DNA from: Bacteroidales bacterium
GTDB lineage: Bacteria > Bacteroidota > Bacteroidia > Bacteroidales > ML635J-15
DNA: 64,000 nt
Direction of reading: 5' to 3'
Assembly (NCBI GenBank): GCA_017617125.1
Contig: JAFZWY010000052.1
Span: 1,528 to 65,527, forward strand
A program made the position numbers and the translations under genes. This document shows, piece after piece, positions 11,993 to 43,420 of the stretch; within the stretch, counting starts at the first letter, position 1; each line of letters begins with the position of its first letter. Below the pieces are notes generated by a model. The model saw nothing but the letters and a program-made list of their open reading frames with translations, was not told the DNA's origin and did no database searches.

Positions 11993-14900
11993 ATGAGAAG
12001 AAAAATACGCTTTGGTATTTTGCTAATGATGGCTGTGACGCTATCGAGTGTTACTGCCTTGGGTCAAATTTTTGAGAACTATAGGTTCGACACGGGAACA
12101 ACAACTTCGTGGAATGCCGTAACCGATGAACTTATAGGTTCGGGTGTGGATGACGGTGTTTCGGCAGTGACCGACATTGGTTTTACGTTTTATTATGACG
12201 GTGTCCCTTATACACAGTTTTCGGTGAACTCCAATGGTAATCTGAAACTTGGTAGTGAAGTTATAGCTTCTGGTGGTTATTCTTCTCCATTGGGGAGTAA
12301 TTATACCACTAATGCCCCGAAGATTGTTGGTGTAGGAAGAGATTGTAGTACTGGTGCCGCCGGTTATGTGAAGACTGGATATACTGGGAATAATAACAAT
12401 AAGATAAGGACAGTCGATTTCCTTCTTCATAAAACTGCTTCGTCATCGGGAACCGATTATATTCAATTCCAAATCCTTTTGTTCCAGGGGTCTAATGAAA
12501 TTAGAATTGTGTATTCAAAAGATACGGCTCATCAAAGTGTGCCGTCCTCATATCAGATCGGTTTGGTAAATGCCGATGCTAGCAAGATGTGGGTGGTAAA
12601 TCCTAGCACTCACGAAGCAAGCTATTTTACTTCTGCAAATAGCTCTACGTATTCGGTATTCCCGGGAACTGGACGATACTATTCGTTTATTCCCGACCCG
12701 TTGAAGACTATCGGCGCGGCAACATCGCTTCCTTATGCCTGCGATTTCGAGAATACTACCGAAAATGGCAGGTGGGCGTTCGGTAACTCTGTTGACGGAT
12801 GGAGTATTGGTTCTGCAACAAACAATGGCGGATCAAAATCGCTCTATGTGTCGAATGATGGGGGAACAACAAACGCTTATAACAGTGCTACTCAGTTTAT
12901 TTATGCTATTAGAGCCTTGAATGTCCAAGCTACTGGAACTTATACGGTTTCATACAATTGGAAATGTCAGGGTGAAAACGGTTATGATTTTTTACGTGCG
13001 TTTCTTGTACCTGCCTCATTGTCTCCTAATTTGTCGGGATATACGCAGGTGTATGCTAATAACATTACAAAGACATCATATCCAAGCGGATGGATTTCCA
13101 TTGATGGAGAGACTTATCTAGGACGACAGACCGAATGGCAGACGATTTCTCAAACGGTAACACTGTCATCAACAGGAACCTACTATCTTGTATTTTATTG
13201 GAGAAGCGATGGTTCGAATCAGGGTGGCGACTACAATCCTCCTGCTGCTGTCGATAATGTAAGTGTGAGGTATTTGCCTGTGGCGGCTTCTGTTCCTTAT
13301 ACATGCAATTTCGAAACCGCTTCCGAAAACAGCAAATGGACTCTTGCAAACGGCTTGCAGACAAACTACTGGATGATAGGAGGCTCAACTTATAACAGCT
13401 CGTCAAATTCGTTGTATATTACCAACGATGGGTCGTCAAACAGCTATACAATAGCATCGGCAATTTCTTATGTATATGCATATAGGAATCTTACATTTGC
13501 TAGTGCTGGCGACTATGTGGTTTCGTTTAAATGGAAAGGATATGGCGAGGGCAACTATGACTACTTGCGTGCTTTCCTTGTTCCGGCTTCGGTCGAAACC
13601 CTTGATGCTGGAAATACCAATAGTATATCAACAGCGAATACTCCTACGGATTGGATTGCGGTGGATGGCGGTTCTAAACTGAACGTGCAATCCGGTTGGC
13701 AAGTAAATTCACAGACTGTAAATGTCCCGACTGCTGGCGAATACAACCTTGTGTTCTATTGGCGGAACGACAATTCGCAAGGAACCCAACCGCCAGTTGC
13801 TATCGACGACATAGAGGTGGCTGCGCCATGTACTGCTACAGCAACAGTGCTTGCCGACGTTCAAGGTTCTTCATCTGTGATTATCAATCGCACTAATGGC
13901 AGCGACGGCGACTATCAGCTTCTTATTACATCATCTACCGACCCTACAACGGCAACCGAAACACCACTCATGATGACTTCGTCAAGCATGACAATAACCG
14001 GTCTCGCTGAACATACTTATTACAACTACTACATTCGTAGCTATTGTAGCGAATACAGGGTAGGCGAGTGGAGCAGCCGTAGAGGATTCTGGACTCGTCA
14101 TGTTCCTACAACCATTCCATATACCTGCGATTTTGAAAATTCTACCGAAAATTCTAAGTGGGTCTTGGCAAACGATGGTCAGGCAAACACTTGGGAAATA
14201 GGAGGTTATACATATAGTAGCGCCTCTAATTCGTTGTATATCACTGGTGGAGAAGGTGAATATGAATACAATTATACAGGAATTGCCAATGTGTATGCAT
14301 ATAGGAATATTAACTTTACAAGTGCTGGCGACTATGTGGTTTCGTTCAAGTGGAAAGGATATGGCGAGGGCAACTACGACTTCATGCGTGCTTTCCTTGT
14401 TCCAGTATCTGTTCAAACGCTTGTCGCTGCAAATACTAGTGGCATAACTACAACGAATACTCCTTCGGGATGGATTGCTGTAGATGGCGGTTCCAAATTG
14501 AATTTGCAATCCGACTGGCAGGTATGTTCGCATACCGTAACAGTTCCAACTGCTGGTGAGTACTATCTTGCGTTCTATTGGAGAAACAACACTAGTTCAG
14601 GAACTCAGCCTCCAGCAGCTGTCGATGACATAGAGGTGGATACTCCTTGTACTGCTTCTGCCGCAATAACAGCCAGTGCAGATGGCTACACTTCGGCGAC
14701 GATCACCCGTACCTCGGGTAGTGGAATAAAGTACGAAATTCTTGTCTCCACTTCGTCCGACCCCGATGCAGCAACCGAAACACCTGTCGAGATGACTTCA
14801 ACGACACAAGCCGTAACAAATTTGACCGAGGGAACTCAGTACTACGCATTTATCCGTAGCTATTGCTCCGAATACAGACCGGGTCCATGGAGTTCTCCTG

Positions 14901-26842: not shown

Positions 26843-26870
26843 AATAAGATTATAGTCGCACAAAGAAAAT

Positions 26871-27000: not shown

Positions 27001-27008
27001 TAAATTTG
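27001..27008 (+). promoter_or_regulatory. -7 box (TAaaTTTG) for the small-ORF/giant-gene-2 unit
   Basis: Matches TAnnTTTG. A TTTG at 26979-26982 lies 18 nt upstream (-33-like). The spacer holds T9 and T8 homopolymer runs. Confidence 0.45.
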
Positions 27009-27624: not shown

Positions 27625-30600
27625 ATGAGAAACTTATACCATATATTAAAAAGCAAAGTTATGCTAATGCAGAAGCACTTTATTGCAGCATGCTGTCTTG
27701 TCATGCTGTTGTGTTGTGGGGATATTTTTGCTCAGACAACAGTAAACTATAATTTTGAAGGTGCGGATAGAAGTTCGTGGACCTTTGTAAATGGATCAGT
27801 CACTAACAAATGGTGTATAAGCAAGAATACAAATGCCCAGAATGGGGGCACTTATTCTTTGTATGTTACCAATGGTACTGGCGGTCTTCAGACAGGAACT
27901 ACACAGGACTATGCGTATACAATATCTTCTAGTTCAGTTGTTTGGGCTTATATGGATATAACATTTCCTGTGACAACCAATGATTTTACGTTCTCGTTTG
28001 ACTGGAAGTGTTATGGCGAATCGTCGTTGGATTTCTTCAGCGCATATTTAGGTCCAACAACCAGTACTGTTACCGCAGGAACAACTTTAACGGCACCGAC
28101 AGGCGCTGTGGCGTTTGTTAATACTTTGCGAACGTCCAACAATACGTATTTCAACGATTATAACGGCAGCGCGTATATGACGACAACAGCGTCTAATGTT
28201 CCATGGAGGACTTTCTCGACAACCTTGGATGCTGCTACATATTCAGGACAGACAAAAAGACTATTTTTTGCATGGAAGAATGATGGATCTGTAGGTGCCG
28301 GTTATCCTGCAGCAATTGATAATATCAAATTGATATACACGCAGCCAACATGTGACGAGACAATTACTTTGTCAAGTAATTTGTCAAGGACAATAAACTG
28401 TAATACAACGTATTGCTTCTACGACTCGGGAGGCGCTTCAGGAAATTATGGTAATAGCCAGGATTATACCGCAACATTTACCTCAAATGGAGCAATAACC
28501 ATTACGTTTGAATCGTTTGCAACTCAGTCAACCCAGGATTATCTTACAGTATACGATGGTAATGCGACGACAGGAATTGTGTTGATTCAAAATGCGAGCG
28601 GAACAACCGTTCCTGCAGGTGTTACGGCTGTTAGCGGTACAATGACTGTAGTATGGCATTCTAATCAATCCCAAAATAATACTGGATGGAAGGCTTATAT
28701 AACAGGATGTGGATATGTAGATCCATGTCCAGTAATAGGAGCAACTGAAACAGCATCTTCTTCTGGTATTTATGGCGGTATTTATACATGGGGAAACTCG
28801 TATGCGTATACACAGCAGGTATATTTGGCTTCTGAACTTTTGGCTGCCGGTGTGCGTCCTGGTGTGCTCGAGAGCATTGCTCTTAACTACGCAGAGACAA
28901 CTGCCAGCTCATTGACATTTGAGGTGTATATTGGACAGACGAGTCAGTCTACAGTGCCGACATCGTGGATTACAGATGCAGGCCTGACACTTGCATATGC
29001 TGGAACAATAAGTTTTACAACAGGGTGGAATACAATAGATGTCAGTGGCGCTAACTTTGTATGGGATGGTTCCAGCAATATTGTATTGGCATTCCGTCGT
29101 ACATCAAGTACTTCTGGAGCGGTATCGTATCCAGATTTCTACTATACGTCTAGTACCGGTATGGTTGCATACTATACTAGTTCGAGTTCTGTTACATTAA
29201 ATGGTAGCAATGTCGCAACTTCATCAGGAACCGCAACAGCTCAGCGTCCGAATGTTAAATTCTGTATAGACGATTGTACTCAGCTGACGGGCACTTTTTC
29301 GTTGTCACAGTCTTCTGCTGTCGTAATGCTTGGACAAACATTGAATCTTAGCACTTTGCTGACGAATAGTCTGTCTCCGGCTGGTACAGTTTCTTATACT
29401 TCATCAGCTACTGGAGTGGCAAATGTTAATTCTAGCGGTGTGGTAACTGGCGTATCTACAGGATCCGCAACTATTACTATTACATATACTCCTAATAATC
29501 CTGATTACTGCTCTAGGTCATTGACCTTTGCAGTAAACGTATCCGATGGATGCCCGGTAATAGGAGAAGGGTCATCATGTGGCTATACCTATGGCCCGGT
29601 TAATAATTTTTACCATTATGGATATTACCAGTATATATTCCCGTTGCCTGATTATTCAGCAGGTGGCGATATAACATCAATAGCTTTCCAGTATTGCTAT
29701 ACCACAGCAATGACTGACAAGACTAATGTTAATATATATATGGGGTTGACATCTAATTCGACTTTTGCTTCAGCAACAAGCTGGATTCCTCTTTCCCAAT
29801 TGACGTTGGTATATTCCGGTCCGCTAAATTGTACTCAGGGATGGAATACTTATACTCTGGATCATCCGTTCTATTTCGATGGTACAAGCAATCTTGTCGT
29901 TGCAATAGACGATAACTCTAATGCATATGACGGTTCGTCATACACATTTTATTATACATCTGGTACAGATAATGTCACTTTGTACAATTATAGCGATTCA
30001 AGTGATCCAGATCCTTCAAATCCACCATCAGGAACTTTGTCGGCAAATCGTCCCAATGTTAAGTTCTGTATTGAGAATTGTACACCACGTACTCTAACAT
30101 TTGCACAGCAAACCTACAACCTTACAAGTTGTTCAAATATATCTCAGACTCCTACTATTTCTCCGGTACAAGGTGGAGCAATTACATATACCTCGTCGAA
30201 TCCGATGGTGGCAACAGTATCTTCGGCCGGCGTTGTTACTCCTATATCGTCAGGTACTACAGTAATAACAGCAACCGTTGCTACTTATAATGGACATTGC
30301 CAGGCATCGGGTTCTTACACGGTTAATGTTGATGTGTCTGGAACAGCACACACTCTTACTTATAATACAACTGCAAATTGTAGTGGTACGGCAAGTGCAG
30401 CTCCGGCAAGCGTAACTGGAACTTCTGCAATAGTAACATCTACAACTCCGACTTGTTCGGGTAAATATTTCATAGGTTGGAATACAGCCATCGATGGTTC
30501 TGGAGCATCTTATGCAGCAGGAGCTACCGTAGATATGGCATGTACGAATGTTACACTATATGCTCAGTATAGTACAGTGCCACCATCTATCACTGGTTCT

Positions 30601-33600
30601 TCAGATTGTGAAAATGCAATGGCATTCTGTGCATCAAACGAAGCCGATGCAGCATATAATTTGGCAATTAGTGCAACTGGAACCGACTCTATAGGTGGAA
30701 TAGGAAGCTACCTTACTCGTAATCCTACTTGGTGGTTCTTGCGAATTTCCGAACCCGGTCCTATAAATATGACAATTCATTCATCATGCGGTGATGTCGA
30801 TTTTGGCTGCTGGGGTCCATTTGACAATGTTACATGTGACCGCGAGAACGACTTGACAAACGGCACGGACTACTCATATTATTCCGGAAATAGTATGGCG
30901 GAGTATTATGGTGCATCGTATAATGGCACTACGCCGACATCGTCAACAACATCTGTTGGAACTCCGATTAATGGAACGTTCGCATTGGCTGTACCTTGCG
31001 GAAATCTTGTAGATTATGGAGGTTCAAGTTCCGAAGATGAATATCTGCAAATTCCAAATGCACAGGTCGGCGAAATATATATTGTAGTTATCGCCAATTA
31101 TGCTGGATGTACAGGTAACATTACGTTTGAACAGTCCAATATTAGTAGTGCAGGGGCAGGTCGTTCCGACTGTACCATTGTAAACGACTGTGCAATTACT
31201 AATGTTACAACTAATGTTGGAGATTGTAATGGCAACCAGACATTCTCTGTAAGTGGTAATATATACTTTACCGATGCTCCGAGCGATGGTACACTTATAG
31301 TTTCCGACGGAGCAATTAGTGAAACTTTTTATCCGCCGTTCACAAGTCCTTTGTCATATTCTCTCGAAGGTCTTACTGGCGATGGACAGGAACATACGAT
31401 AACGGCAGCCTTCTCGACATCTTCTGTAAATTGTAGCAAGATTGCTTATATCGATGCTCCTACTTGCGAAATCAACTGCCCGGATGCAACCGTTACACTC
31501 AGTGGATACAGCGAACAGGTTGGCGATATATATTATTATAATGTATGTCTTAATTCTGGTGTAAATATGTCTGCAACTCAGACCGGATATACTAGTCCGT
31601 CGTGGACTTGGAGTGTTAATCCTCACCATGGCATTGCTCCAAGAATACTTACAGGACAGTCGGTTTCGTACACACCAACAGCAGAACAGGGTTACGATGT
31701 TTCCCTCACGGTGGCTGAAGGCCAGTGCCGAACCGTAGCCCATGCACGTATCCGTGTGTCGGCTGGTCCGCAAACCGATGCAACTTCGGTTGACGCAGGA
31801 ACAATTTGTGTCGGAAATACAGGAACTGTAACTATTGGCGGGGCAGGTTCTGCTATAGTTGTAACAGATACTACATACGATATCGAATCGACTTTGGGTA
31901 GAGCTGGTGAAACTTTTATCCCCGACGGTCCTAATTGTACCGACCAGTGCTATACATCCAGTGTTACTTTCTACGACTACGAAGATGGTGCAACAGTCCA
32001 GAACGTAGATGCAATCGAATACCTGAGGATAAACATGGAACACTCGTTTATCGGTGATATCCAGATAAAACTTACTTGCCCGTCGGGACGTTCGGCTGTA
32101 ATATTGCAGGACTTGTATTCTACCGATACTTCAAATCATTCGATGTATAACTCACAGGCAATTGATCCATATACCTACACATGGCCAGATAGGGAAACCA
32201 CTACACGTTGGCATATTGGTTCGTCGGCAACTAACTGGTACACAGGTCTGCATATGTTGGGAAGAACTGCTTACCAGAGCCAGAACGATTCTTATTATTA
32301 TAGTGATGACGGTAATACATATTACCTGGCATCGTTTGGAAGTGCTGAAGATGCAAACGATTTTATAGAGAATTACCTTGCATTATATTATACAGGAAAT
32401 ACGTATGCTATATATAGTATAGGTGGCGGCAGTTACTATGCAATAGCATTTACCAGTGGTTCCTATACATTATTCGTATGGCTTACATTTGATAACACAA
32501 CTTCAAGCAATGCATATTCATTCCCGTCGCAGTCTGCAGCACAATATTTTATCAACAATGTACATGGTGGCAGTGGCGTCGCTTCTTCGTATGCAGATTT
32601 GGGCGCATATAACCGTATATATTTCGGTGAACCGGATATCTATGATGTCGTTGATGGTGCAAACCTTTCAACCTCCCAGATATGCGATGGCGACGATGCT
32701 CACAATCTTGCAGGTATTGGTTACGACTATGCATGGACAAGCAACTCCAACTATAATACCGTCGGCTATGTATACGATGTCGCAAATATGAGTTCTAGTA
32801 CAACTTTATACAACAACGGAACAGCTTCGACGAATACTCTTCATCATGTTATTCCTTCGGATGTAGAAGCAGGTACTCATATATATCAGCCGTTCAATAG
32901 CTTCTCCAACTTTATCGGATGTCCTCTCAATGGTACATGGACAATTTCGGTATGTGATAGCTGGGCAAAGGATAACGGATATATCTTCAATTGGGAACTT
33001 GCTCTTGATCCAGCATTGCTTCCAAACGACTGGTCTTATACAGTAGGTCTCGAAAGCGTAACTGTAGACTGCGGTTCTATGGTTGCTGTAAGTGGTAACG
33101 ACGTTGTTATTACTCCTGAATCAGGTTCTACAATGCCATCTACATGCAATATCACACTTCACGACAGATATGGTTGCGAAACTGTTGTTCCTTTGACATT
33201 TAATGTAGTTGAACCAACTATTGTTCTTACTTCTGGAGCAAACGATCAGGAGGTATGCGAAGGTATGGATATTGAAAATATCGTATATACAATAGGTGGA
33301 TCTGCATCCAGCGCAACAGCTTTCGGTTTGCCGGATGGAGTAACATTGACGGTTTCTGGAACAACAGCTACTATCTCTGGCGCTCCTACAACAGCAGGTA
33401 GATATAATTATACTATATATACAGAAAGCGGTGACGCTCTCCATTGCGAGGAAGTTTATCTCTCGGGATCAATAGTAGTCAATGTCGGTAATATAGTTCC
33501 TGAGTTTGATCAGGCTGGTCCATACTGCGAAGGTACTACTGTGGCCGCCTTGCCAACTACTTCGACAAATGGAATATCAGGTACATGGTCACCTCGAATA

Positions 33601-36600
33601 ACTAACGAAACCAATAGGTACACGTTTACTCCAAATCCTGGACAATGTGCAACTACTACAACAATGGATATTACCGTAAATCCATTGCCGACATTGGAAT
33701 ATACTTCGGGAAGCGAAACTTTGTGTGCTAACATAGCACCAACAAGCAATATAGTCTTCACATTCGGAGGCGGTGCAAATGGTGCCGATGTTACCGGTCT
33801 TCCAGCAGGTATGGAATTCAATATTGTCGGTAGCACTGTTGTAATATCAGGAACACCAACAGCGTCGGGTACATTCCCATATGTTGTTACTACAACTGGT
33901 GCTGTTTCTCCATGTGAAAACGAATCATTGTCACGTACAATCACTGTCAACGAATCGCCTACACTCGTACTGAGATCGGGAAGCAATAACCAGACAGTAT
34001 GTGCAGGTTCTGCAATTGAATCGTTGGTATATGCTTATGGCGGTGGCGCAACTGGTGCTAATGCAACTATGCCTGCCGGTTTGACGCAGAGCCTAAATAC
34101 TACTGACCATACTCTTACTATTAGTGGTACACCAACTGCATCAGGAACTATTACAGTAGTTACTACTGGAGTAAATGCTCCTTGCGAGGATAGAACCTTG
34201 TCCGCAACCATTACGGTAAACGAACAAGCTCAGTTGGACCTTGCATCTGCATCTTCCGATGTAGACCTTTGCCGTGAAGTTCCGTGGTCTGGAAATATCC
34301 AGTACACCTTTGGTGGTTCTGCAACAGGTGCAAATGTAACAGGCTTGCCTTTAGGTGTTACTTATTCTGTATCTGGTACAACGGTGACAATCTCTGGTAA
34401 TCCTACCGATGAAGCCGGTTCATATACCTATACAGTTACGACAACAGGTGCAGTAAGCCCATGCGAAAACATCTCATTGACGGGTATTATTAGAGTATCC
34501 GAAAATGCAACTCTCGAACTTACCTCTGCAGCAGGTACCGACGATCAGTCGATATGTTTGCCAGGCGATTTCGAAGATATTGAATATACATTCGGTGGTG
34601 GAGCTACAAGTGTTGACCTCGTCGCTCTTAATAATGCATTACCAAACGGTGTTACCGCTTCTGTAAATACGGTTGCACAAACTGTTATTATTTCGGGTAC
34701 ACCGACAGAAACAGGAACATTCTTATATGCAGTTACAACTACAGGATCTGTCGATCCTTGTAAGTCGGAAACAATGACTGGTACTATTGTCGTTAATAGA
34801 ATGCCAGAGCTTATTGCTACAGGTAACGACAACCAGAATTTCTGCTTCGGTAATGCAATGACTGATCTTGTGTTCACATATGGTGGCGGTGCAACAAGCG
34901 CAGTTATAAGCGGAACAATGCCTGCAGGCGTATCAATTTCTTATGGTACAAATACAATGACTCTGAGCGGAACTCCAACCGAAACAGGTGATTTTAACTT
35001 CTCTGTGGTTACAACTGGTGCTGCTGGAACTTGTACTAATGTAGAATTGCCTGTTTCTATAAAGGTATTCGACAATCCTACTGTTGGAATTACTTCGACA
35101 GCAACTCAGATTTGCAATGGCTCGACAGCAACTTTGACTTCTAATCCAGCATCTTTCCAATCGTACGCATGGACTTGCGAAACATCGAGCAATGCAACAT
35201 ATACTATCACTTCGGGTATGCCCGCAACAACTACAGGTTCGTCAATAGAGGTGAATCCGACAGTTACTCCAGGTAGCACGAATATTACATATGCGTTGAC
35301 CGTTTCCGATGCAAACGGATGTACTGCAAATGTGGAACAGTCGATAATTGTATCGGATATACCGGAAGCCGAAGTTAGCGTAACTCCTAATACAAAGTGT
35401 GAAGTTCCATACAACGGTACAATAACCGTAGGCAACTTCTCAGGTGCGCTTACAGGTGGAACTTATACGATATTTGCTAATGGAGAAACCCTTACTTCGA
35501 CAGGTGCCAATGTGGTATTTGACGGCTTAACTCCTGGCGATTATGTTGTAAGAGTCTCGAGCGAATCGACTTCGGATAACTGTTACTCAGAATATAATGT
35601 TACAATAGGGGATGAGCCGACTCATCCTACAGTAGCTATTGTCGGTCAGCTTTCTATCTGCGACAATACTAGTACAACTCTTACTGCTCATGCCGACGAC
35701 GGTTTGGGTACATTTACTTACCTTTGGTCGGACAACTCTACAGCAGAAACACTTGTAACACCAAACTTGACAAGTTCGACGATGTATTACGTTTTGGCAA
35801 CCGATGAAAACGGATGTACTGCATACAACGAAGTAACCGTCGCAATAGGTGATACTCCAGAAGTAAGCGCAACAGCAACCTCGCCTATATGCTTGGGTAA
35901 GAATACAATCTTGCAGGCTGCTGTTTCGAATGCAGGAAGCGGATATACACTGGAATGGACAGCAAACCCATCAGAAAATTCTGGCTTGCCAGCTAATTCT
36001 ACTGGAGCACGTATTACTGTAACTCCGACAGCTCAAGGTACTTATAATTATCAGGTAAAGCTTACTACAAGTTCATGTAATGATGGTAACGATTATGTGG
36101 TTTACGCCGATGTCGATGTTGTTGTTAATCCGTTGCCAACCCCAGGTATTACAAACAATACTGGAACACAAACAATGACATGTGATGTGACTTCTATATC
36201 TCTGACCGCAACAGGCGGAACTTCTTACGCATGGTCAAATAATATAAATGTGGCTGCAAATACGATTAGTACAACAGGAACATATACTGTAACTGTTACC
36301 GATGCAAACTCTTGCTCGGCAACTACTACAATCGCAATTGACAATGATGTTACACAGCCACAGGTTGCAATAACCGAGCCAGCTACTAGAATTCTTACTT
36401 GTGACGTTCAGTCTATTGCCCTTAATGTAACTTCGACAACTCTAGGAACAACATTCGATTGGTCATCACAAACAGTTACAACTCCAGGTACATATACCGT
36501 GGTTGCAACTGGTCCTAACGGATGTGAAAATTCTGCTTCTATCGAAATAACCAGAGATGTTGCTTTGCCAACTGTAGGTATCAATAACCCGGCAACAACG

Positions 36601-39600
36601 ATATTAACATGTGCAAATCCGGAAATAACTCTTACTGCATATGGAACTGGAACTCTTTCGTGGACTACACAAACCGTCGACCATGAAGATACATATGAGG
36701 TTGTTGCAACTGCAGCCAATGGTTGTTCCGCTACGGCAAGTATTTACATAGGCATCGATAAGGCCGCACCGACTGTTGGTATTACTTCTAGCGGTGATAT
36801 TTTGTCGTGTAGAATCCAGAATGTAACATTGACAGCAAGTGGCGCAAGAACTTATATCTGGAGCGATGCAAACTCTTCGGCAGGTACAACTCTCAGTGTT
36901 ACCACCCCTGGTACATATTATGTAACAGGTACGGGTACAAACGGATGTACGGCAGAAACATTATATACTATTAATCCGGACTATGATTTGCCAAACGTAT
37001 CGATTGTTGCACCGACTAACACTCTTACTTGCGATGTTAGATCTATTGCGTTGACTGCACAAACACAAACTCCAGGTACAACTTTCGACTGGACAACACG
37101 TACGGTAAGTACTCCTGGTACATATACAGTTGTAGCAACAGGTCCTAATGGATGTACGGCTTCTGCAGATTTTGAAATTTTACAGAATGTCGATTTGCCT
37201 GATGTCGGTATCACTGCTACCGATACTATGTTGACATGTAATAACCCAACAATAACTTTGACCGGTTCTGGTACAGGTTCGTTGTCGTGGGCTTCTGGTT
37301 CTTTGGATGTGACAACTCCGGGTGTATATACACTTATAGCTTCTGGTGACAATGGCTGTAGCAATACAGATCAGATAACTATTTACCAGAACATATCTAC
37401 TCCAAATGTAAGCCTATTGAATAATACAGGTACAGATATACTAACATGTGACATCCGTTCTATTTCTGTTTCGGTTGAAGATGATAGTGATGCCGATGTT
37501 TATGTATGGTCTGCTGGAGGTGAAAATACTACTGGTACTGGTAATGCCTTTACTGCTCCTGGTACATATTATGTAACAGCAACTGCTCCTAATGGATGCG
37601 AAAGCATTGCATCAATAACTATTGGCCAAGATATTGTACCTCCAACCGTGTCAATAACAAATAATACCGGAACAAATACATTGACATGTGATTTGACCCA
37701 GATCTCTGTTACAGCAGTGGGTTCTGCAACCGTTGATAACTACCAGTGGTCGCAGGGTACAACACAGATGTCGGCAAATAATACACTTGTAACAATTGGT
37801 ACGTACGTCGTCACTGCAACTGCTACAAACGGTTGTACGGCAACTGCTCAGATTATAATTGACGAAAGTGTTAACCGTCCAAATATCGATTTCATAAATG
37901 TTACAGGAACTACCGTTCTTACTTGTGATGTAACTTACATCGAAGTAACAGCAACTGGAACAGGAGCTAGCTACCAGTGGTCTGGCGGATCATCGCCAAG
38001 TACTGCAAATAATAGATTCGATGCAATCGGTACTTATTATGTAACAGCAACTGGTGATAATGGTTGTACAAATTCGAAACCATTCTCCATAACTGAAAAT
38101 ATTGTTCCTCCAACAGTGACGATAACAAATGAGAGCGGTTTCAACGAAATCAATTGTAACCATGCTTTGGTTAATGTAACAGCTGTTCAGGCAGGTTCTG
38201 TTCCTATTGTATCATATCTGTGGTCTAATGGCGTCGATGTGGCTGCCAATACATTTACAACTCCTGGCACTTATACGGTAAGTGCAACTGCAAATAATGG
38301 TTGTGAAAGTACAGCAAACGTTGTAATCACCGAAGATCATAATCCTCCAAGACCATCAATCTTGAGCGCTAATGGAATATATATAATCGATTGCGCACAC
38401 CCGTCGTTGATACTCAATGCAACCGGTGGCGTATCATACCTGTGGACTCCAGGTGGACAGACAACTTCCGAAATTGCAGTTACTACTCCAGGTACATATG
38501 TTGTTGAAGCAACCGGTACTAATGGTTGTACAGCAACAACATCTGTGGAAATCGGTATCAATACAGAACCACCAGCAGTGGCTATAAACAATATTACAGG
38601 AGAAGATCAAATCAATTGTAATGTTACTAACATACATATTATAGCTCAAGGTGGTTATATATATTCATGGGACAATTCTCTGTGGGGCGGTGGCGCCGAA
38701 CAATACATTACTGAAGCAGGTCTTTATTCAGTAACTGTTACGGCTCGCAATGGTTGTACGGCATCGGCAGCTATTACAATAACACAAGATACAGATCCGC
38801 CAACACTTCAGGCCAACAGTACAACAGGATTCTACGAACTGAACTGCAATGTTCCTCAGATAACTGTTAATGCGACAGGAAACGGCGAGTCTTATGCTTG
38901 GTCTGGCGGAACAAATCCGACAGGTAGTACAAATGTATTCACCAGCGCAGGTATTTACACTGTAACCTCTACTGGTTTCAATGGATGTACATCAAGCGTT
39001 AGCGTACAGCAGATAACGACCAATTACACTGCTCCTACAATTTCGATTGTCGATCAGCTTGGTACTGCAGTCCAGGTGGTAACCCTGAATTGTACAAATC
39101 CAGAAGCAACCTTGACGGTTCAGAGCAATGGTATCGCATATACATGGAACGACTATCAAACATCTTCGTCTCGCACATTTACTCAGCAGGGCGTATATAC
39201 AGTAACTGTTACAGGTAGCAATGGATGTAACACTGCTGCATCTGTCGAAATTCGTGAAGATTTCGCAACTCCTGCAGCACAGATTGTTAATAGTTCAAAC
39301 GCTACAGAATTGACTTGTACTACAAGTTCAATAACACTCTCCGCTAATGGTGGTGCAGGGGCAACATACTTGTGGTCAAATGGTTCAAGCAGTCGAACTA
39401 TTACGGTTACAACTCCTGATAGGTATACAGTAGTAGTAACAGGAACTAATGGATGTACAAATTCGAATTATGTTGACATTACCCAGGCTCCTGTATTCGA
39501 TGCTTCTATTACAAATGTTGGTACTATCAGTTGTAATGGCGGTTCAACATCTGCAACTGTGACTGCAACCGGCGGTAATCCAGGATACCATTACACATGG

Positions 39601-41127
39601 AACGACGGTCAGACATCTGCTACTGCAAACAACCTTGTTGCTGGTGCTTATACCGTGACAGTTCGCGATAATGGTGGATGTTCTGCTGTATTGTCGTGCA
39701 GTATTAACCAGCCACAGCCACTGGTTGTCGGATTGAATCCTCACGATTTGTACTGCGGTGTTTCGCTTGGTTCTATCGATGCTGCTGTTACTGGTGGTAC
39801 TCAGCCATACACATATATGTGGTCTAGCGGTTCTTCGGCAACATCACTTTCTAACCTTAACACTGGAACATATGGTTTGTCGGTAACTGATGCCAATGGA
39901 TGTGTGTCATCTTCAACCGCAACAATCAGAATGCTCGGTATGCTTGCTGTTAATGCTTCTGTTACACATGCTATCAGCTGTTATGGATTAAACGATGGTG
40001 TAGTCGCTGCAACATGCGAAAACGGTGCGGCTCCATTGATGTATTCATGGAGTACCGGACATGCAGTATACGAAGTGAACAATATGTTCGCAGGTTCGTA
40101 TCAGGTTACTGTAACCGATGCATGGGGATGCTCTGGTCAGTCTAGCGTAACACTCGTTACACCTTCGGCAATGGTTGTCGAAATGACACCTGTATCTCCT
40201 AAGTGCTACAATACTCATGACGGTCAGGTTAACGTACTGACTACTGGCGGTGTTTCCCCATATACTTATGCATGGAACAACGCTTCGACAAGCCAGACGC
40301 TTACCAATGTGGCAGCAGGAACATATTCTCTCACAATTACCGATGCTGCAGGTTGCTCCACTTCAAGGAATGTGACCATCGATGCTCCAGATGCAATTGC
40401 AATGGAAGTTGTTGTTACCGATGTGAAGTGTTATGGCGATAGAGATGGTAAGGTAGAGGTAACTGCTAATGGCGGTACCGAGCCGTATCGTTATTCTGTA
40501 GAAAGAATTCTCGAACTCTCAACATCGAGCCTGTTTACTAACATCGGTGCTGGCTACTACAATGTCCGCGTTACCGATGCTAATGGTTGCGAAGTTACGA
40601 AGTCGGCAGTTGTTAAGCAGCCTGAAGAAATAAAGGTAGAAGCCGTAACCGAGGATCCGTTCTGTAAGAATAGCCGTACAGGTTGGATTTCAGTATCGGC
40701 AATCGGTGGTGTCGTTCCTTATCAGTATTACTGGGATAACTACATGTCAGATTCTTCGCTTATGCTTAATATCCCCGAAGGTCAATATACAGTAGGCGTA
40801 GTTGATGCTAACGGATGTAAATCTTTGAATGTAAAGGTTACTCTTGTAGACGTTGACGTTGACTGCTTGCGCATACCGAATGTATTTACACCTAACGGCG
40901 ATGGTATTAACGACGAATGGATAATTGCAAATCTCAACATGTTCCCAGAAGCTCAGATCTACGTGTTCAACCGTTGGGGCCAGTTGATGTATAAGACTAC
41001 TGGCGACGGCGAACCATGGGATGGTAGCTACAGAGGACATTACGTACCTGCAGGAACCTACATTTATGTTATCGATCTCTTCAACGATGATGAACCGTAC
41101 AAGGGAACGGTAACAATTGTTTACTAA
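27625..41127 (+). CDS. Giant (4500 aa) SprB-like cell-surface adhesin, T9SS cargo with type-B C-terminal sorting domain
   Basis: Uninterrupted 13.5-kb ORF. The signal peptide is ...HFIAACCLVMLLCCGDIFAQ, and the true start may be M13/M15 at 27661/27667. Domain content in order:
- Head module related to the giant-1 module (...YPAAIDNIKLIY).
- CUB-like domain (CFYDSGGASGNYG...DYLTVYDGN).
- Two copies of an unassigned ~185-aa domain ending RPNVKFCI, each followed by a Big_2-like domain.
- A Listeria-Bacteroides repeat (YFIGWNTAIDGSGASY).
- A proprotein-convertase P-domain (HSFIGDIQIKLTCPSGRSAVIL...NGTWTISVCD).
- Six He_PIG-like Ig repeats (GLP.G......ISGTPT..G).
- About 19 PKD/Ig-like ~75-aa repeats (L[TN]C....I.LTA.G...Y.WS...G.Y.VT.T..NGC).
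- Six SprB repeats (C.G...G.....A.GG..PY.Y.W......AG.Y.VTV.DA.GC).
- A CHU_C-type tail. Confidence 0.9.
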   Translation: MRNLYHILKSKVMLMQKHFIAACCLVMLLCCGDIFAQTTVNYNFEGADRSSWTFVNGSVTNKWCISKNTNAQNGGTYSLYVTNGTGGLQTGTTQDYAYTISSSSVVWAYMDITFPVTTNDFTFSFDWKCYGESSLDFFSAYLGPTTSTVTAGTTLTAPTGAVAFVNTLRTSNNTYFNDYNGSAYMTTTASNVPWRTFSTTLDAATYSGQTKRLFFAWKNDGSVGAGYPAAIDNIKLIYTQPTCDETITLSSNLSRTINCNTTYCFYDSGGASGNYGNSQDYTATFTSNGAITITFESFATQSTQDYLTVYDGNATTGIVLIQNASGTTVPAGVTAVSGTMTVVWHSNQSQNNTGWKAYITGCGYVDPCPVIGATETASSSGIYGGIYTWGNSYAYTQQVYLASELLAAGVRPGVLESIALNYAETTASSLTFEVYIGQTSQSTVPTSWITDAGLTLAYAGTISFTTGWNTIDVSGANFVWDGSSNIVLAFRRTSSTSGAVSYPDFYYTSSTGMVAYYTSSSSVTLNGSNVATSSGTATAQRPNVKFCIDDCTQLTGTFSLSQSSAVVMLGQTLNLSTLLTNSLSPAGTVSYTSSATGVANVNSSGVVTGVSTGSATITITYTPNNPDYCSRSLTFAVNVSDGCPVIGEGSSCGYTYGPVNNFYHYGYYQYIFPLPDYSAGGDITSIAFQYCYTTAMTDKTNVNIYMGLTSNSTFASATSWIPLSQLTLVYSGPLNCTQGWNTYTLDHPFYFDGTSNLVVAIDDNSNAYDGSSYTFYYTSGTDNVTLYNYSDSSDPDPSNPPSGTLSANRPNVKFCIENCTPRTLTFAQQTYNLTSCSNISQTPTISPVQGGAITYTSSNPMVATVSSAGVVTPISSGTTVITATVATYNGHCQASGSYTVNVDVSGTAHTLTYNTTANCSGTASAAPASVTGTSAIVTSTTPTCSGKYFIGWNTAIDGSGASYAAGATVDMACTNVTLYAQYSTVPPSITGSSDCENAMAFCASNEADAAYNLAISATGTDSIGGIGSYLTRNPTWWFLRISEPGPINMTIHSSCGDVDFGCWGPFDNVTCDRENDLTNGTDYSYYSGNSMAEYYGASYNGTTPTSSTTSVGTPINGTFALAVPCGNLVDYGGSSSEDEYLQIPNAQVGEIYIVVIANYAGCTGNITFEQSNISSAGAGRSDCTIVNDCAITNVTTNVGDCNGNQTFSVSGNIYFTDAPSDGTLIVSDGAISETFYPPFTSPLSYSLEGLTGDGQEHTITAAFSTSSVNCSKIAYIDAPTCEINCPDATVTLSGYSEQVGDIYYYNVCLNSGVNMSATQTGYTSPSWTWSVNPHHGIAPRILTGQSVSYTPTAEQGYDVSLTVAEGQCRTVAHARIRVSAGPQTDATSVDAGTICVGNTGTVTIGGAGSAIVVTDTTYDIESTLGRAGETFIPDGPNCTDQCYTSSVTFYDYEDGATVQNVDAIEYLRINMEHSFIGDIQIKLTCPSGRSAVILQDLYSTDTSNHSMYNSQAIDPYTYTWPDRETTTRWHIGSSATNWYTGLHMLGRTAYQSQNDSYYYSDDGNTYYLASFGSAEDANDFIENYLALYYTGNTYAIYSIGGGSYYAIAFTSGSYTLFVWLTFDNTTSSNAYSFPSQSAAQYFINNVHGGSGVASSYADLGAYNRIYFGEPDIYDVVDGANLSTSQICDGDDAHNLAGIGYDYAWTSNSNYNTVGYVYDVANMSSSTTLYNNGTASTNTLHHVIPSDVEAGTHIYQPFNSFSNFIGCPLNGTWTISVCDSWAKDNGYIFNWELALDPALLPNDWSYTVGLESVTVDCGSMVAVSGNDVVITPESGSTMPSTCNITLHDRYGCETVVPLTFNVVEPTIVLTSGANDQEVCEGMDIENIVYTIGGSASSATAFGLPDGVTLTVSGTTATISGAPTTAGRYNYTIYTESGDALHCEEVYLSGSIVVNVGNIVPEFDQAGPYCEGTTVAALPTTSTNGISGTWSPRITNETNRYTFTPNPGQCATTTTMDITVNPLPTLEYTSGSETLCANIAPTSNIVFTFGGGANGADVTGLPAGMEFNIVGSTVVISGTPTASGTFPYVVTTTGAVSPCENESLSRTITVNESPTLVLRSGSNNQTVCAGSAIESLVYAYGGGATGANATMPAGLTQSLNTTDHTLTISGTPTASGTITVVTTGVNAPCEDRTLSATITVNEQAQLDLASASSDVDLCREVPWSGNIQYTFGGSATGANVTGLPLGVTYSVSGTTVTISGNPTDEAGSYTYTVTTTGAVSPCENISLTGIIRVSENATLELTSAAGTDDQSICLPGDFEDIEYTFGGGATSVDLVALNNALPNGVTASVNTVAQTVIISGTPTETGTFLYAVTTTGSVDPCKSETMTGTIVVNRMPELIATGNDNQNFCFGNAMTDLVFTYGGGATSAVISGTMPAGVSISYGTNTMTLSGTPTETGDFNFSVVTTGAAGTCTNVELPVSIKVFDNPTVGITSTATQICNGSTATLTSNPASFQSYAWTCETSSNATYTITSGMPATTTGSSIEVNPTVTPGSTNITYALTVSDANGCTANVEQSIIVSDIPEAEVSVTPNTKCEVPYNGTITVGNFSGALTGGTYTIFANGETLTSTGANVVFDGLTPGDYVVRVSSESTSDNCYSEYNVTIGDEPTHPTVAIVGQLSICDNTSTTLTAHADDGLGTFTYLWSDNSTAETLVTPNLTSSTMYYVLATDENGCTAYNEVTVAIGDTPEVSATATSPICLGKNTILQAAVSNAGSGYTLEWTANPSENSGLPANSTGARITVTPTAQGTYNYQVKLTTSSCNDGNDYVVYADVDVVVNPLPTPGITNNTGTQTMTCDVTSISLTATGGTSYAWSNNINVAANTISTTGTYTVTVTDANSCSATTTIAIDNDVTQPQVAITEPATRILTCDVQSIALNVTSTTLGTTFDWSSQTVTTPGTYTVVATGPNGCENSASIEITRDVALPTVGINNPATTILTCANPEITLTAYGTGTLSWTTQTVDHEDTYEVVATAANGCSATASIYIGIDKAAPTVGITSSGDILSCRIQNVTLTASGARTYIWSDANSSAGTTLSVTTPGTYYVTGTGTNGCTAETLYTINPDYDLPNVSIVAPTNTLTCDVRSIALTAQTQTPGTTFDWTTRTVSTPGTYTVVATGPNGCTASADFEILQNVDLPDVGITATDTMLTCNNPTITLTGSGTGSLSWASGSLDVTTPGVYTLIASGDNGCSNTDQITIYQNISTPNVSLLNNTGTDILTCDIRSISVSVEDDSDADVYVWSAGGENTTGTGNAFTAPGTYYVTATAPNGCESIASITIGQDIVPPTVSITNNTGTNTLTCDLTQISVTAVGSATVDNYQWSQGTTQMSANNTLVTIGTYVVTATATNGCTATAQIIIDESVNRPNIDFINVTGTTVLTCDVTYIEVTATGTGASYQWSGGSSPSTANNRFDAIGTYYVTATGDNGCTNSKPFSITENIVPPTVTITNESGFNEINCNHALVNVTAVQAGSVPIVSYLWSNGVDVAANTFTTPGTYTVSATANNGCESTANVVITEDHNPPRPSILSANGIYIIDCAHPSLILNATGGVSYLWTPGGQTTSEIAVTTPGTYVVEATGTNGCTATTSVEIGINTEPPAVAINNITGEDQINCNVTNIHIIAQGGYIYSWDNSLWGGGAEQYITEAGLYSVTVTARNGCTASAAITITQDTDPPTLQANSTTGFYELNCNVPQITVNATGNGESYAWSGGTNPTGSTNVFTSAGIYTVTSTGFNGCTSSVSVQQITTNYTAPTISIVDQLGTAVQVVTLNCTNPEATLTVQSNGIAYTWNDYQTSSSRTFTQQGVYTVTVTGSNGCNTAASVEIREDFATPAAQIVNSSNATELTCTTSSITLSANGGAGATYLWSNGSSSRTITVTTPDRYTVVVTGTNGCTNSNYVDITQAPVFDASITNVGTISCNGGSTSATVTATGGNPGYHYTWNDGQTSATANNLVAGAYTVTVRDNGGCSAVLSCSINQPQPLVVGLNPHDLYCGVSLGSIDAAVTGGTQPYTYMWSSGSSATSLSNLNTGTYGLSVTDANGCVSSSTATIRMLGMLAVNASVTHAISCYGLNDGVVAATCENGAAPLMYSWSTGHAVYEVNNMFAGSYQVTVTDAWGCSGQSSVTLVTPSAMVVEMTPVSPKCYNTHDGQVNVLTTGGVSPYTYAWNNASTSQTLTNVAAGTYSLTITDAAGCSTSRNVTIDAPDAIAMEVVVTDVKCYGDRDGKVEVTANGGTEPYRYSVERILELSTSSLFTNIGAGYYNVRVTDANGCEVTKSAVVKQPEEIKVEAVTEDPFCKNSRTGWISVSAIGGVVPYQYYWDNYMSDSSLMLNIPEGQYTVGVVDANGCKSLNVKVTLVDVDVDCLRIPNVFTPNGDGINDEWIIANLNMFPEAQIYVFNRWGQLMYKTTGDGEPWDGSYRGHYVPAGTYIYVIDLFNDDEPYKGTVTIVY
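28351..28715 (+). other. CUB-like domain within giant gene 2
   Basis: CNTTYCFYDSGGASGNYGNSQDYTATFTSNGAITITFESFATQSTQDYLTVYDGNATTG follows the CUB pattern (G.I.SP.YP..Y....C.W.I....I.L.F..F..E...D.L.VYDG). Called by eye only. Confidence 0.5.
31906..33010 (+). other. Proprotein-convertase P-domain split by a ~270-aa Tyr/Ser/Asn-rich insertion
   Basis: The N-terminal half is LRINMEHSFIGDIQIKLTCPSGRSAVILQD. The C-terminal half is CPLNGTWTISVCDSWAKDNGYIFNWELAL. About 270 residues separate them, where canonical P-domains have a short loop. Confidence 0.55.
33214..35070 (+). repeat. Six ~90-aa He_PIG-like Ig repeats (one unrelated module interposed)
   Basis: The recurrent pattern is ...C......I.YT.GGGATGA.VTGLP.G.......T..ISGTPT..G...Y.VTTTG....C.... 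Confidence 0.6.
35071..39490 (+). repeat. About 19 tandem ~75-aa PKD/Ig-like repeats
   Basis: 15 regular units were counted between 36120 and 39490, plus about 4 divergent ones before that. DNA-level similarity is visible, for example 36441-36540 versus 37075-37170. Confidence 0.7.
39490..40860 (+). repeat. Six SprB-type repeats
   Basis: Example: ISCNGGSTSATVTATGGNPGYHYTWNDGQTSATANNLVAGAYTVTVRDNGGC. Five further units carry the same Cys/Gly/Tyr pattern. Confidence 0.75.
40867..41124 (+). other. T9SS type-B C-terminal sorting domain (gliding-motility-associated CTD, CHU_C-like)
   Basis: RIPNVFTPNGDGINDEWIIANLNMFPEAQIYVFNRWGQLMYKTTG...WDGSYRGHYVPAGTYIYVIDL...YKGTVTIVY. Confidence 0.85.
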
Positions 41128-43418: not shown

Positions 43419-43420
43419 TT

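What the first reader, a model, noticed from the sequence alone, without database searches (positions are those of the whole stretch)
11993..41127. Back-to-back giant T9SS cargo genes (4949 aa with type-A CTD, 4500 aa with type-B CTD) forming a 29-kb surface-protein locus
Two uninterrupted ORFs of 14.85 and 13.5 kb lie head to tail on the plus strand and fill about 44% of the window.
- The first ends in a type-A sorting domain (LYPNPNDGHFSV...VEKFVVE).
- The second ends in a type-B domain (IPNVFTPNGDGINDEW...GTVTIVY) preceded by six SprB repeats, which is the architecture of a SprB-like mobile gliding adhesin.
- A hairpin terminator (26871-26905) and a new TAaaTTTG box (27001-27008) lie between them, so they look like two adjacent transcription units rather than one operon.
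- The domain mix is unusual: NIDO-like, CUB-like, proprotein-convertase P-domain, He_PIG-like Ig, Big_2, InlB-B repeats, and at least two module types I cannot assign.

The function cannot be read from the sequence. The pair looks like a dedicated adhesion or surface-fibril locus that uses both T9SS cargo classes side by side.
Basis: partly seen in the sequence, partly recalled or inferred. Interest (0 to 1): 0.72.

Follow-up and report, generated by a model that had tools for sequence, protein, structure and literature searches.

The report
Two giant T9SS surface adhesin genes
Two intact, very large surface-protein genes of an uncultured rumen Bacteroidales bacterium carry the two different type IX secretion tags. 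The giants are ordinary for this phylum.

Summary
ORF A (11993-26842, 4949 aa) ends in a type-A T9SS sorting domain. ORF B (27625-41127, 4500 aa) ends in six SprB repeats and a type-B sorting domain. A strong hairpin terminator and a conserved Bacteroidetes-type promoter lie between them. Independent assemblies agree at 99.99-100%, and internal DNA repeats are at most 76% identical, so these are not artefacts or pseudogenes.

Corrections:
- A 169-aa signal-peptide gene, S (27104-27613), lies 11 nt upstream of B. The second transcription unit is therefore S-B.
- The "NIDO-like" label has no model support.
- The main unassigned module (8 copies in A, 1 in B) is predicted to be a MAM/CBM-like jelly roll.
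- No PorP/SprF gene is nearby, so B is an "orphan" type-B substrate.

The A-S-B cassette is present in all 10 species genomes that hold S, all uncultured rumen Bacteroidales. S belongs to a tiny family with no model (65 clusters among 1.84 billion). Elsewhere it is either encoded just upstream of B-like cargo or fused to its N-terminus.

Verdict: ordinary giant T9SS adhesins, probably glycan- or fibre-binding, with a new candidate cargo-specific partner domain. The SprB-like gliding role is unsupported.

The parts
11891..11898 (+). Candidate Bacteroidetes-type -7 box (TAACTTTG) for gene A, about 95 nt before its ATG
   Evidence: Read directly. The distance to the ATG resembles that of the S-B promoter. 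Its conservation was not tested because relatives' loci do not reach this region.
11993..26842 (+). Gene A: 4949-aa type-A T9SS cargo. It has a signal peptide (aa 1-24, ALG|Q) and an unassigned N-terminal domain (aa 25-242). Then come 8 units of MAM/CBM-like module plus 1-4 fn3, DUF5018-like domains, choice-of-anchor J, about 9 InlB B-repeats and the CTD.
12719..20806 (+). Array of eight roughly 185-aa MAM/CBM-like jelly-roll modules (aa 243-2938) interleaved with fn3 domains
   Evidence: Self-similarity of 30-74%. Alignment A1. HMM hits at 2e-65 to 6e-76. AF2 pLDDT 87.8. Foldseek top matches are meprin MAM, CBM22 and the Eph ligand-binding domain, E about 1e-5, TMq up to 0.63. No Pfam or NCBIfam hit.
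24131..24508 (+). Choice-of-anchor J domain in A (aa 4047-4172)
   Evidence: NF038128 scores 44 bits against a cutoff of 30. A weaker copy at aa 3706-3827 scores 21.8 bits.
24560..26581 (+). About nine divergent InlB B-repeat (Flg_new_2) units, period about 77 aa (aa ~4190-4863)
26615..26836 (+). Type-A T9SS C-terminal sorting domain of A (aa 4875-4948)
   Evidence: TIGR04183 scores 25.6 bits against a cutoff of 23. PF18962 scores 27.3 bits on a chunk. The C-terminal motif PGVYFARF...VE[KR]FVV[EK] is conserved in all orthologues.
26862..26905 (+). Intrinsic terminator of gene A: a 12-bp GC-rich stem extended by A/U pairs, then U8
   Evidence: -27.7 kcal/mol, z = -8.7. Every relative has a hairpin with a T-run at this place, with a different sequence.
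26979..27008 (+). Promoter of the S-B unit: TTTG (-33), 18-nt spacer, TAAATTTG (-7)
   Evidence: Read. Both elements are invariant in 10 species. The box lies 94-121 nt before the S ATG in relatives.
27104..27613 (+). Gene S: 169-aa secreted protein. It has a signal peptide (AFS|Q), a roughly 90-aa beta-beta-alpha-beta-beta-alpha domain, a disordered tail and a conserved basic C-terminus. It is a candidate partner, or split N-terminal domain, of B.
27625..41127 (+). Gene B: 4500-aa type-B T9SS cargo. In order: signal peptide (IFA|Q), MAM-like module, CUB, Big_2 units, Flg_new, a Cys-rich unassigned module, P-domain, He_PIG array, Ig_7/PKD-like array, 6 SprB repeats, CTD.
27724..28344 (+). B's single MAM/CBM-like module (aa 34-240), the same family as the eight in A
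   Evidence: E = 2e-48. Among B orthologues it is present only here and in UBA1184.
28465..28698 (+). CUB domain of B (aa 281-358)
   Evidence: PF00431 scores 31 bits against a cutoff of 21.4. It is shared with cargo that is fused to or adjacent to S-like domains.
30460..31560 (+). Cys-rich unassigned module of B (aa 946-1312). It is the signature shared with S-linked cargo elsewhere.
   Evidence: No Pfam hit and no PDB sequence relative. 47% identity to P0041 and 37% to P0082. Also matched in L105, L106 and L107.
32026..32145 (+). Proprotein-convertase P-domain match in B (best stretch aa 1468-1507). Pfam reported no protease (Peptidase_S8) hit for B.
   Evidence: PF01483 scores 46.9 bits
39520..40740 (+). 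Six SprB repeats (aa 3966-4372), period about 75 aa
   Evidence: PF13573 scores 128 bits on a chunk. Repeats listed.
40870..41118 (+). Type-B T9SS C-terminal sorting domain of B (aa 4416-4498)
   Evidence: TIGR04131 scores 72.5 bits against a cutoff of 35. PF13585 scores 79.8 bits.
41152..41190 (+). Intrinsic terminator of the S-B unit (12-bp stem, T7)

Best explanation
This is a chromosomal surface-adhesin cassette of an uncultured rumen Bacteroidales bacterium. It is made of two transcription units, [A] and [S-B].

Export (inferred from the families):
- All three products carry Sec/SPI signal peptides with Gln at +1.
- A would be taken from the T9SS translocon by PorV through its type-A CTD. 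It would then be cleaved and attached to anionic LPS, or released.
- B would be taken by a PorP/SprF-like shuttle encoded elsewhere in the genome, making it an 'orphan' type-B substrate. It would stay tethered to that barrel.

Function (inferred from fold and habitat):
- Both proteins are very long strings of fn3 and Ig-like spacers that present binding modules. These are MAM/CBM-like jelly rolls, choice-of-anchor J, CUB, a P-domain and a Cys-rich module.
- The most likely role is multivalent attachment to glycans, on plant fibre or on other cell surfaces in the rumen.

Role of S (inferred from gene order and gene fusions):
- S is the separately encoded counterpart of an N-terminal domain that is covalently fused to B-like cargo in other Bacteroidota.
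- It most likely binds B's N-terminal region. It could act as a periplasmic cap or chaperone, or as a tip subunit carried out with B.
For: Shown by tool results:
- Intact ORFs and CTD model hits.
- Signal peptides with Q at +1 in A, S and B (Q-rule in PMC5837995).
- Terminators and a conserved promoter.
- No catalytic family was matched in A or B, including chunked scans.
- The repeated module is predicted to be a jelly roll with MAM and CBM22/35/61 neighbours.
- The A-S-B order holds in all 10 GTDB species genomes that hold S, and in further metagenome contigs, all rumen Bacteroidales.
- The S family is tiny: 65 clusters at E<=1e-3 among 1.84 billion.
- Four distant S-like domains are N-terminal parts of larger secreted proteins that share B's Cys-rich module (two of them also share its CUB). 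At least one of the four has a type-A CTD at 43.5 bits.
- Five of five stand-alone distant S-like genes are followed 6-46 nt later by a large ORF with a signal peptide. Three of those five share B's CUB and Cys-rich module.
- No PorP/SprF or other T9SS gene was found among the window ORFs scanned.

From the literature:
- Type-B cargo anchors through PorP-like proteins (PMC9143113).
- Orphan type-B substrates use a shuttle encoded elsewhere (PMC12618676).
Against: - No T9SS machinery can be seen in this 64-kb window, so secretion is inferred from the tags alone.
- A's CTD score is close to the cutoffs.
- Ligand specificity is unknown. The jelly-roll fold is shared by protein-binding domains (MAM, Eph) and sugar-binding domains (CBM), and TM-scores are only 0.45-0.63.
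- S has no CTD, and no interaction with B was computed or measured.
- The S model is moderate in the domain (block means about 74-89) and has no informative structural neighbour.
- One distant S-like gene (L103) is followed by a protein with no BLAST similarity to B.
Confidence: 0.68

Rival explanations
1. B is a SprB-type mobile gliding adhesin that the gliding motor propels along the cell surface. The locus is a motility locus.
For: Six SprB repeats lie directly before a strong type-B CTD. In F. johnsoniae the SprB C-terminal region is what binds SprF and links the protein to the machinery (PMC9143113, PMC12618676).
Against: - SprB repeats cover only about 9% of B. The rest consists of CUB, Big_2, P-domain, He_PIG and Ig_7 modules.
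- There is no sprC, sprD or sprF-like neighbour. The gene downstream is a convergent aldolase.
- Most type-B substrates in F. johnsoniae are not SprB (12 type-B substrates, PMC12618676).
- The non-motile P. gingivalis also has a type-B cargo (PMC9143113).
- B's relatives that are fused to S carry type-A CTDs, so the CTD class is interchangeable in this cargo family.
Confidence: 0.12
2. A and B work together as one heteromeric surface structure, for example a co-fibril or paired adhesins for the same ligand. This would explain why the two cargo classes are kept side by side.
For: The A-S-B adjacency holds in 10 of 10 species. In the window and in UBA1184, B carries the same module family that A repeats eight times.
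Against: - The two are separate transcription units with a conserved terminator between them.
- Outside the rumen clade, S-B-like units occur without an A-like neighbour.
- Most B orthologues lack the shared module.
Confidence: 0.15
3. The giant ORFs are assembly artefacts or decaying pseudogenes.
For: One low-coverage contig (L004) has a single indel that breaks A's CTD and B's start.
Against: - Contigs assembled from other samples are 99.99-100% identical with no gaps over up to 20.5 kb (L002, L003).
- Orthologues of 4497-4843 aa (A) and 4173-4207 aa (B) are intact in other species.
- Internal DNA repeats are at most 76% identical over at most 547 nt, and there is no exact repeat of 30 nt or more.
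Confidence: 0.02

Closest known systems
[quoted passage not shown]
   Same: B has a TIGR04131/CHU_C sorting domain at its extreme C-terminus and a Sec signal peptide. No porP/sprF-like gene lies next to it. It is expected to use a shuttle or anchor encoded elsewhere (PMC12618676, PMC9143113).
   Different: B is about ten times larger than PG1035. It is preceded by a conserved small secreted-protein gene (S), which has not been described for those substrates. No shuttle has been identified here.
SprB, the gliding motility adhesin of Flavobacterium johnsoniae (sprCDBF operon)
   Same: Both are giant proteins with SprB repeats (PF13573) immediately before a type-B CTD.
   Different: B has only six SprB repeats, all at the C-terminal end. 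No sprC, sprD or sprF neighbours are present. The remaining 85-90% of B is made of other modules. Motility of the host is unknown.
Giant type-A CTD adhesins and multidomain surface proteins of Bacteroidota (fn3/Ig-rich, choice-of-anchor J-containing, TIGR04183 tail)
   Same: A has a signal peptide, long fn3/Ig arrays, a choice-of-anchor J domain and a type-A tail with the usual motifs.
   Different: A carries eight copies of a MAM/CBM-like module with no existing sequence model, and an N-terminal 218-aa domain for which the word-based search found only 3 relatives. It is fixed in position next to an S-B unit in one rumen clade.
MAM domain (meprin/neuropilin) and jelly-roll CBMs (CBM22, CBM35, CBM61)
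   Same: The predicted fold of the repeated module matches these. Foldseek gives E of 7e-6 to 1e-4 and TMq up to 0.63.
   Different: There is no sequence-model match. Identity to the matches is 10-19%. The ligand is unknown.

Membership tests
T9SS type-A cargo (TIGR04183 / PF18962) | Sorting domain of the family at the extreme C-terminus | tested here: met
   TIGR04183 scores 25.6 bits against a cutoff of 23, at aa 4875-4948 of 4949. PF18962 scores 24.7 on the whole protein and 27.3 on a chunk, against a cutoff of 27. This is borderline, but orthologues hit more strongly.
T9SS type-A cargo (TIGR04183 / PF18962) | N-terminal Sec signal peptide | tested here: met
   MRRKIRFGILLMMAVTLSSVTALG|QIF was read directly. 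No signal-peptide predictor was available.
T9SS type-A cargo (TIGR04183 / PF18962) | T9SS machinery in the genome (Sov/SprA, PorK/L/M/N, PorV, PorU) and secretion that depends on it | not testable with these tools
   Pfam matched no T9SS component in the window ORFs scanned, nor did NCBIfam in the seven it was run on. The rest of the genome could not be reached.
T9SS type-B cargo (TIGR04131 / PF13585 CHU_C) | Type-B sorting domain at the extreme C-terminus | tested here: met
   TIGR04131 scores 72.5 bits against a cutoff of 35. PF13585 scores 79.8 bits against a cutoff of 27. Both lie at aa 4416-4498 of 4500.
T9SS type-B cargo (TIGR04131 / PF13585 CHU_C) | Cognate porP/sprF-like shuttle gene directly downstream (common, not universal) | tested here: not met
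   Downstream lie a convergent class-II aldolase, then MscS, DUF3078 and an EF-G-like gene. Two more distant type-B relatives also lack such a gene. B is therefore an 'orphan' substrate in the sense of PMC12618676.
SprB gliding adhesin | SprB repeats plus a type-B CTD | tested here: met
   Six repeats at aa 3966-4372. CTD as above.
SprB gliding adhesin | sprC-sprD-sprB-sprF operon context | tested here: not met
   Upstream is S, which has no family. Downstream is the aldolase on the other strand.
SprB gliding adhesin | Gliding machinery (gld genes) and movement of the adhesin along the cell | not testable with these tools
   The organism is uncultured and only the window and 20-kb loci were available.
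MAM domain (PF00629) / CBM jelly rolls | Match to a family sequence model | tested here: not met
   No Pfam or NCBIfam hit for the modules. The PDB profile search gave only noise, E>=0.07.
MAM domain (PF00629) / CBM jelly rolls | Beta-sandwich jelly-roll fold | tested here: met
   AF2 pLDDT 87.8 and pTM 0.88. Foldseek matches 4gwm (meprin beta) at E = 6.8e-6 with TMq 0.62, and also CBM22, CBM61 and the Eph ligand-binding domain.
   No family at E<=1 for A aa 1-242, and none at E<=0.01 for aa 1-525.
Choice-of-anchor J domain (NF038128) | Match above the curated cutoff | tested here: met
   A aa 4047-4172 scores 44 bits against a cutoff of 30. A second copy scores 21.8 bits, below the cutoff. 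The eight MAM-like modules are not detectably related to this domain by hhalign.

The most novel reading that the evidence does not exclude
S defines a new class of cargo-specific T9SS accessory: a small secreted domain with no sorting tag of its own. It occurs either fused to the N-terminus of a family of cargo proteins that share the Cys-rich module (most also a CUB domain), or encoded immediately upstream. It would bind the cargo's N-terminal region in the periplasm as a cap or chaperone that keeps a 4500-aa fibril secretion-competent. Alternatively it would be carried out with the cargo to become the distal tip. This would be the first cargo partner of a type-B substrate that is not a PorP/SprF shuttle.
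Probability: 0.3. Interest if true: 0.6.

Novelty: new variant of a known kind. Interest (0 to 1): 0.4.

Why it matters
Giant T9SS adhesins are common, so the two ORFs alone add little. Three things are useful.

1. How giant orphan type-B substrates are handled is still an open question in T9SS biology. This locus offers a conserved, testable candidate partner (S), and natural gene fusions point to a physical link with the cargo.
2. The cassette is fixed in a clade of uncultured rumen Bacteroidales. It carries many copies of a CBM/MAM-like module that has no sequence model, which makes it a candidate fibre- or cell-attachment device in a habitat where attachment drives plant degradation.
3. 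Three module families deserve family models. They are the S domain, the MAM-like module and the Cys-rich module.

Tried and rejected
- A homologue search with B's N-terminal 480 aa returned only 2 hits because candidates saturated on low-complexity words.
- A homologue search with A's N-terminal domain returned 3 short fragments and no names.
- Profile searches of PDB sequences found nothing meaningful for the MAM-like module, the Cys-rich module or S.
- hhalign of the MAM-like profile against A's choice-of-anchor J region, and against A's N-terminal domain, showed no relation beyond a shared LPYxxDF start.
- Foldseek on the S model gave only weak alpha/beta matches (RNA polymerase Rpb11/L, LuxS; TM 0.3-0.5). 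I do not interpret these.
- The consensus terminator scanner missed the A terminator. Direct folding confirmed it.
- Rfam found only one tRNA in the window, and nothing credible in the 900-nt region upstream of A.
- The metagenome scan with B's C-terminus gave two close relatives that end at contig edges, so the region downstream of B in true orthologues could not be seen.
- I considered and rejected a protease function. The P-domain is present, but Pfam matched no catalytic domain.
- I rejected a toxin or contact-dependent system because no toxin domain was matched.
- I rejected horizontal-transfer island status. GC is 0.41-0.45, like the flanks, and the flanking genes are housekeeping genes.
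Full report
**Observation**

The window holds two uninterrupted plus-strand ORFs exactly where stated. ORF A is 11993..26842 (4949 aa) and ORF B is 27625..41127 (4500 aa). GC content across them (0.41-0.45) is the same as in the flanks.

A's last 74 residues match the type-A sorting domain.
- TIGR04183 scores 25.6 bits against a cutoff of 23.
- PF18962 scores 24.7 bits on the whole protein and 27.3 on a 524-aa chunk, against a cutoff of 27.
- The LYPNP, PGVYFARF and KFVVE motifs are visible.

B's residues 4416-4498 match TIGR04131 at 72.5 bits (cutoff 35) and PF13585 at 79.8 bits. Six clear SprB repeats precede this domain at aa 3966-4372.

'NIDO-like' has no support. Pfam gives no family at E<=1 for A aa 1-242.

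**Integrity**

The window is a rumen metagenome scaffold (ENA ERZ28653445, SAMN15830093). Contigs assembled elsewhere cover the A-S-B junction.
- Logan SRR12529212 is 100% identical over 20.5 kb.
- SAMN15830088 is 99.988% identical over 16.3 kb, with no gaps.
- One short low-coverage contig has a single indel.

Tandem Repeats Finder finds no tandem array inside the genes. The most similar internal DNA repeats are 75-76% identical over 374-547 nt, and there is no exact repeat of 30 nt or more. Collapse of repeats in a short-read assembly is therefore unlikely. The protein repeats are old and diverged, at 30-74% identity.

A 169-aa ORF, S (27104-27613), lies between the giants and ends 11 nt before B's ATG.
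- It has a signal peptide (…SASAFS|QVK).
- It has a conserved domain of about 90 aa, predicted as beta-beta-alpha-beta-beta-alpha with pLDDT mostly in the 80s.
- It has a disordered tail and a short conserved basic C-terminus.
- It has no Pfam or NCBIfam family.
- It has no PDB sequence relative and no informative structural neighbour.

**Transcription units**

The hairpin after A (26862-26905) folds at -27.7 kcal/mol with z = -8.7 and is followed by U8. Each of ten related loci has a hairpin with a T-run at the same place. The stem sequences differ, which argues for selection on the structure.

The promoter consists of TTTG (26979-26982), an 18-nt spacer and TAAATTTG (27001-27008). These elements, and the sequence AGTAGAGTATG at the S start, are invariant in the ten species aligned. 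This matches the Bacteroides TTTG/TAnnTTTG promoter type (my own knowledge: Bayley et al. 2000).

B has its own terminator at 41152-41190, and the convergent aldolase has another. The units are therefore [A] and [S-B], not [A] and [B].

**Anatomy of A**

| Region (aa) | Content |
|---|---|
| 1-24 | Signal peptide |
| 25-242 | Unassigned N-terminal domain |
| 243-2938 | Eight units of a ~185-aa module, each followed by 1-4 fn3 |
| 2940-3108 and 3849-3933 | DUF5018-like domains |
| 4047-4172 | Choice-of-anchor J, 44 bits (a weak second copy at 3706-3827) |
| ~4190-4863 | About nine InlB B-repeats |
| 4875-4948 | Type-A CTD |

The 185-aa module has no sequence model. AlphaFold2 on the nine window copies gives pLDDT 87.8 and pTM 0.88, with an all-beta jelly roll. 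Its best PDB neighbours are the meprin MAM domain, CBM22, CBM61, CBM35 and the Eph ligand-binding domain (E of 7e-6 to 1e-4, TMq 0.45-0.63).

**Anatomy of B**

In order, B contains the following:
- a signal peptide;
- one copy of the same MAM-like module (aa 34-240);
- CUB (aa 281-358);
- a duplicated ~270-aa Big_2 unit;
- Flg_new;
- a Cys-rich unassigned module (aa 946-1312);
- a P-domain with no protease family matched beside it;
- about seven He_PIG units;
- about fifteen Ig_7/PKD-like units;
- six SprB repeats;
- the type-B CTD.

Pfam and NCBIfam matched no catalytic family in either protein.

**Surroundings**

Pfam matched no T9SS or gliding family in any of the window ORFs of 150 aa or more that were scanned, and NCBIfam matched none in the seven it was run on. 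The flanks encode housekeeping functions: an acyl-CoA synthetase-like gene, peptidase C69, aldolase, MscS, an EF-G-like gene, a sigma-54 regulator, DnaE and others.

No porP/sprF-like gene follows B. In F. johnsoniae such a gene usually lies directly downstream of a type-B substrate, but 'orphan' substrates exist and use a shuttle encoded elsewhere (PMC12618676). P. gingivalis PG1035 is anchored by the general PorP (PMC9143113). B fits the orphan class.

**Relatives**

S has 26 close relatives in the 5.8-billion-protein set. Those that carry a source name are labelled as from 'Bacteroidales bacterium' MAGs.

A scan of one genome per GTDB species found S in 10 genomes. All are uncultured rumen Bacteroidales or Bacteroidia: RUG14538, RUG13712, RUG12182, UBA1184, RGIG9953, RGIG8023, RGIG7873, two red-deer MAGs and ruminal_MAG_341.

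In nine of the ten, S lies between a giant ORF ending in the same type-A tail and a giant downstream ORF. The tenth contig, a short one, ends just after S. Orthologue lengths vary:

| Gene | Window | Orthologues |
|---|---|---|
| A | 4949 aa | 4497-4843 aa |
| B | 4500 aa | 4173-4207 aa |

The MAM-like module at B's N-terminus occurs only in the window and in UBA1184. All A orthologues keep their copies. B therefore gained this module recently in one sub-lineage.

**The S link to cargo**

A profile of S, searched against 1.84 billion cluster representatives, found only 65 hits at E<=1e-3, of which 11 were at E<=1e-30.

Four of the distant hits are not small proteins. In these the S-like domain is the N-terminal domain, directly after the signal peptide, of a protein of 666-1183 aa (P0041, P0074, P0082, P0085).
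- All four also match B's Cys-rich module, and P0041 and P0082 also match its CUB domain. The module match is 47% identity over 329 aa for P0041 and 37% over 415 aa for P0082.
- P0082 ends in a type-A CTD at 43.5 bits.

Five distant stand-alone S-like genes were looked up. All five are followed on the same strand, 6-46 nt later, by a large ORF with a signal peptide. Three of these share B's CUB and Cys-rich module. One is too short to judge. One shows no similarity to B.

The neighbour upstream of S in those loci is not A-like; in L106, for example, it is a DNA ligase. The conserved core is thus S plus B-like cargo, either fused or adjacent. A is an addition specific to the rumen clade.

**Mechanism**

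Shown:
- the tags;
- the signal peptides, with Gln at +1 in all three proteins as in the Bacteroidetes Q-rule (PMC5837995);
- the two units;
- the module composition;
- the conservation;
- the gene fusions.

Inferred from established T9SS biology:
- All three proteins are exported by Sec.
- A is recognised by PorV and processed by the attachment complex.
- B is recognised by, and anchored to, a PorP-like barrel encoded elsewhere.

Inferred from fold and habitat: both proteins are long fibrils that present glycan- or protein-binding modules for attachment in the rumen.

Inferred from gene order and fusion: S binds B's N-terminal part, as a periplasmic cap or chaperone, or as a co-exported tip.

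**Comparison and verdict**

The giants are new members of well-known cargo classes. The SprB-type gliding reading fails the operon-context test and cannot otherwise be tested here.

What is new is the conserved S partner, together with three module families that lack models. I rate the locus as a new variant of a known kind, with interest 0.4. The most novel reading is that S is a new kind of cargo-specific T9SS accessory. I give this about 0.3 probability.

Noticed in passing
window 11377-11705: A ~330-nt element bounded by 19-nt inverted repeats (CTATATACATGTTGACTAA / TTAGTCAACTTGTATATAG, 1 mismatch) lies in the 900-nt region upstream of gene A. It folds far better than shuffles (-113.9 kcal/mol, z = -6.0). 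It could be MITE-like or a structured RNA. Rfam gives no match, there is no second copy in the window, and there is no copy in the 108 fetched loci.
   Followed up: partly
window 11214-11290: Four direct copies of GGGGTGAAATTT(T), spaced 19-24 nt apart, lie upstream of gene A. They may be an array of regulator-binding sites.
   Followed up: no
window 27724-28344; L009 versus L007, L011, L013-L022: B's N-terminal MAM-like module is present only in the window's B and in UBA1184's B. Other B orthologues lack it, while all A orthologues keep theirs. This looks like a lineage-specific module gain by B, possibly from its neighbour A.
   Followed up: partly
P0041, P0074, P0082, P0085 (distant S-like fusions): Among the cargo proteins that carry a fused S-like domain and B's Cys-rich module, P0082 ends in a type-A CTD by Pfam, and P0074 and P0085 end in type-A-like tails by eye. 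The window's B ends in a type-B CTD. The CTD class therefore appears interchangeable within this cargo family.
   Followed up: partly
window 51489-54539 (-): A 1016-aa protein combines an N-terminal WD40 beta-propeller with a C-terminal caspase domain (Peptidase_C14). It matches the EACC1-associated caspase model below its cutoff. It is followed by a 257-aa ORF with no family.
   Followed up: no
window 8681-9343 (-): A four-helix-bundle protein of the family of proteins encoded in 23S rRNA intervening sequences, with a TIGR04258 'suffix' domain, sits between a C69 peptidase and an AMP-binding enzyme.
   Followed up: no
L004 (ENA ERZ28653971 scaffold_20858), equivalent to window 24699-30325: This short contig from another sample differs from the window by one indel and two substitutions. 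In the gene calls the end of A's CTD is truncated and B's start is split. It is either a low-coverage assembly error or a strain with broken genes.
   Followed up: partly
window 43415-44407 (+): A DUF3078 protein (330 aa) lies two genes downstream of B. It has no NCBIfam name and no PorP/SprF match. Whether it is an outer-membrane barrel relevant to B was not resolved.
   Followed up: no
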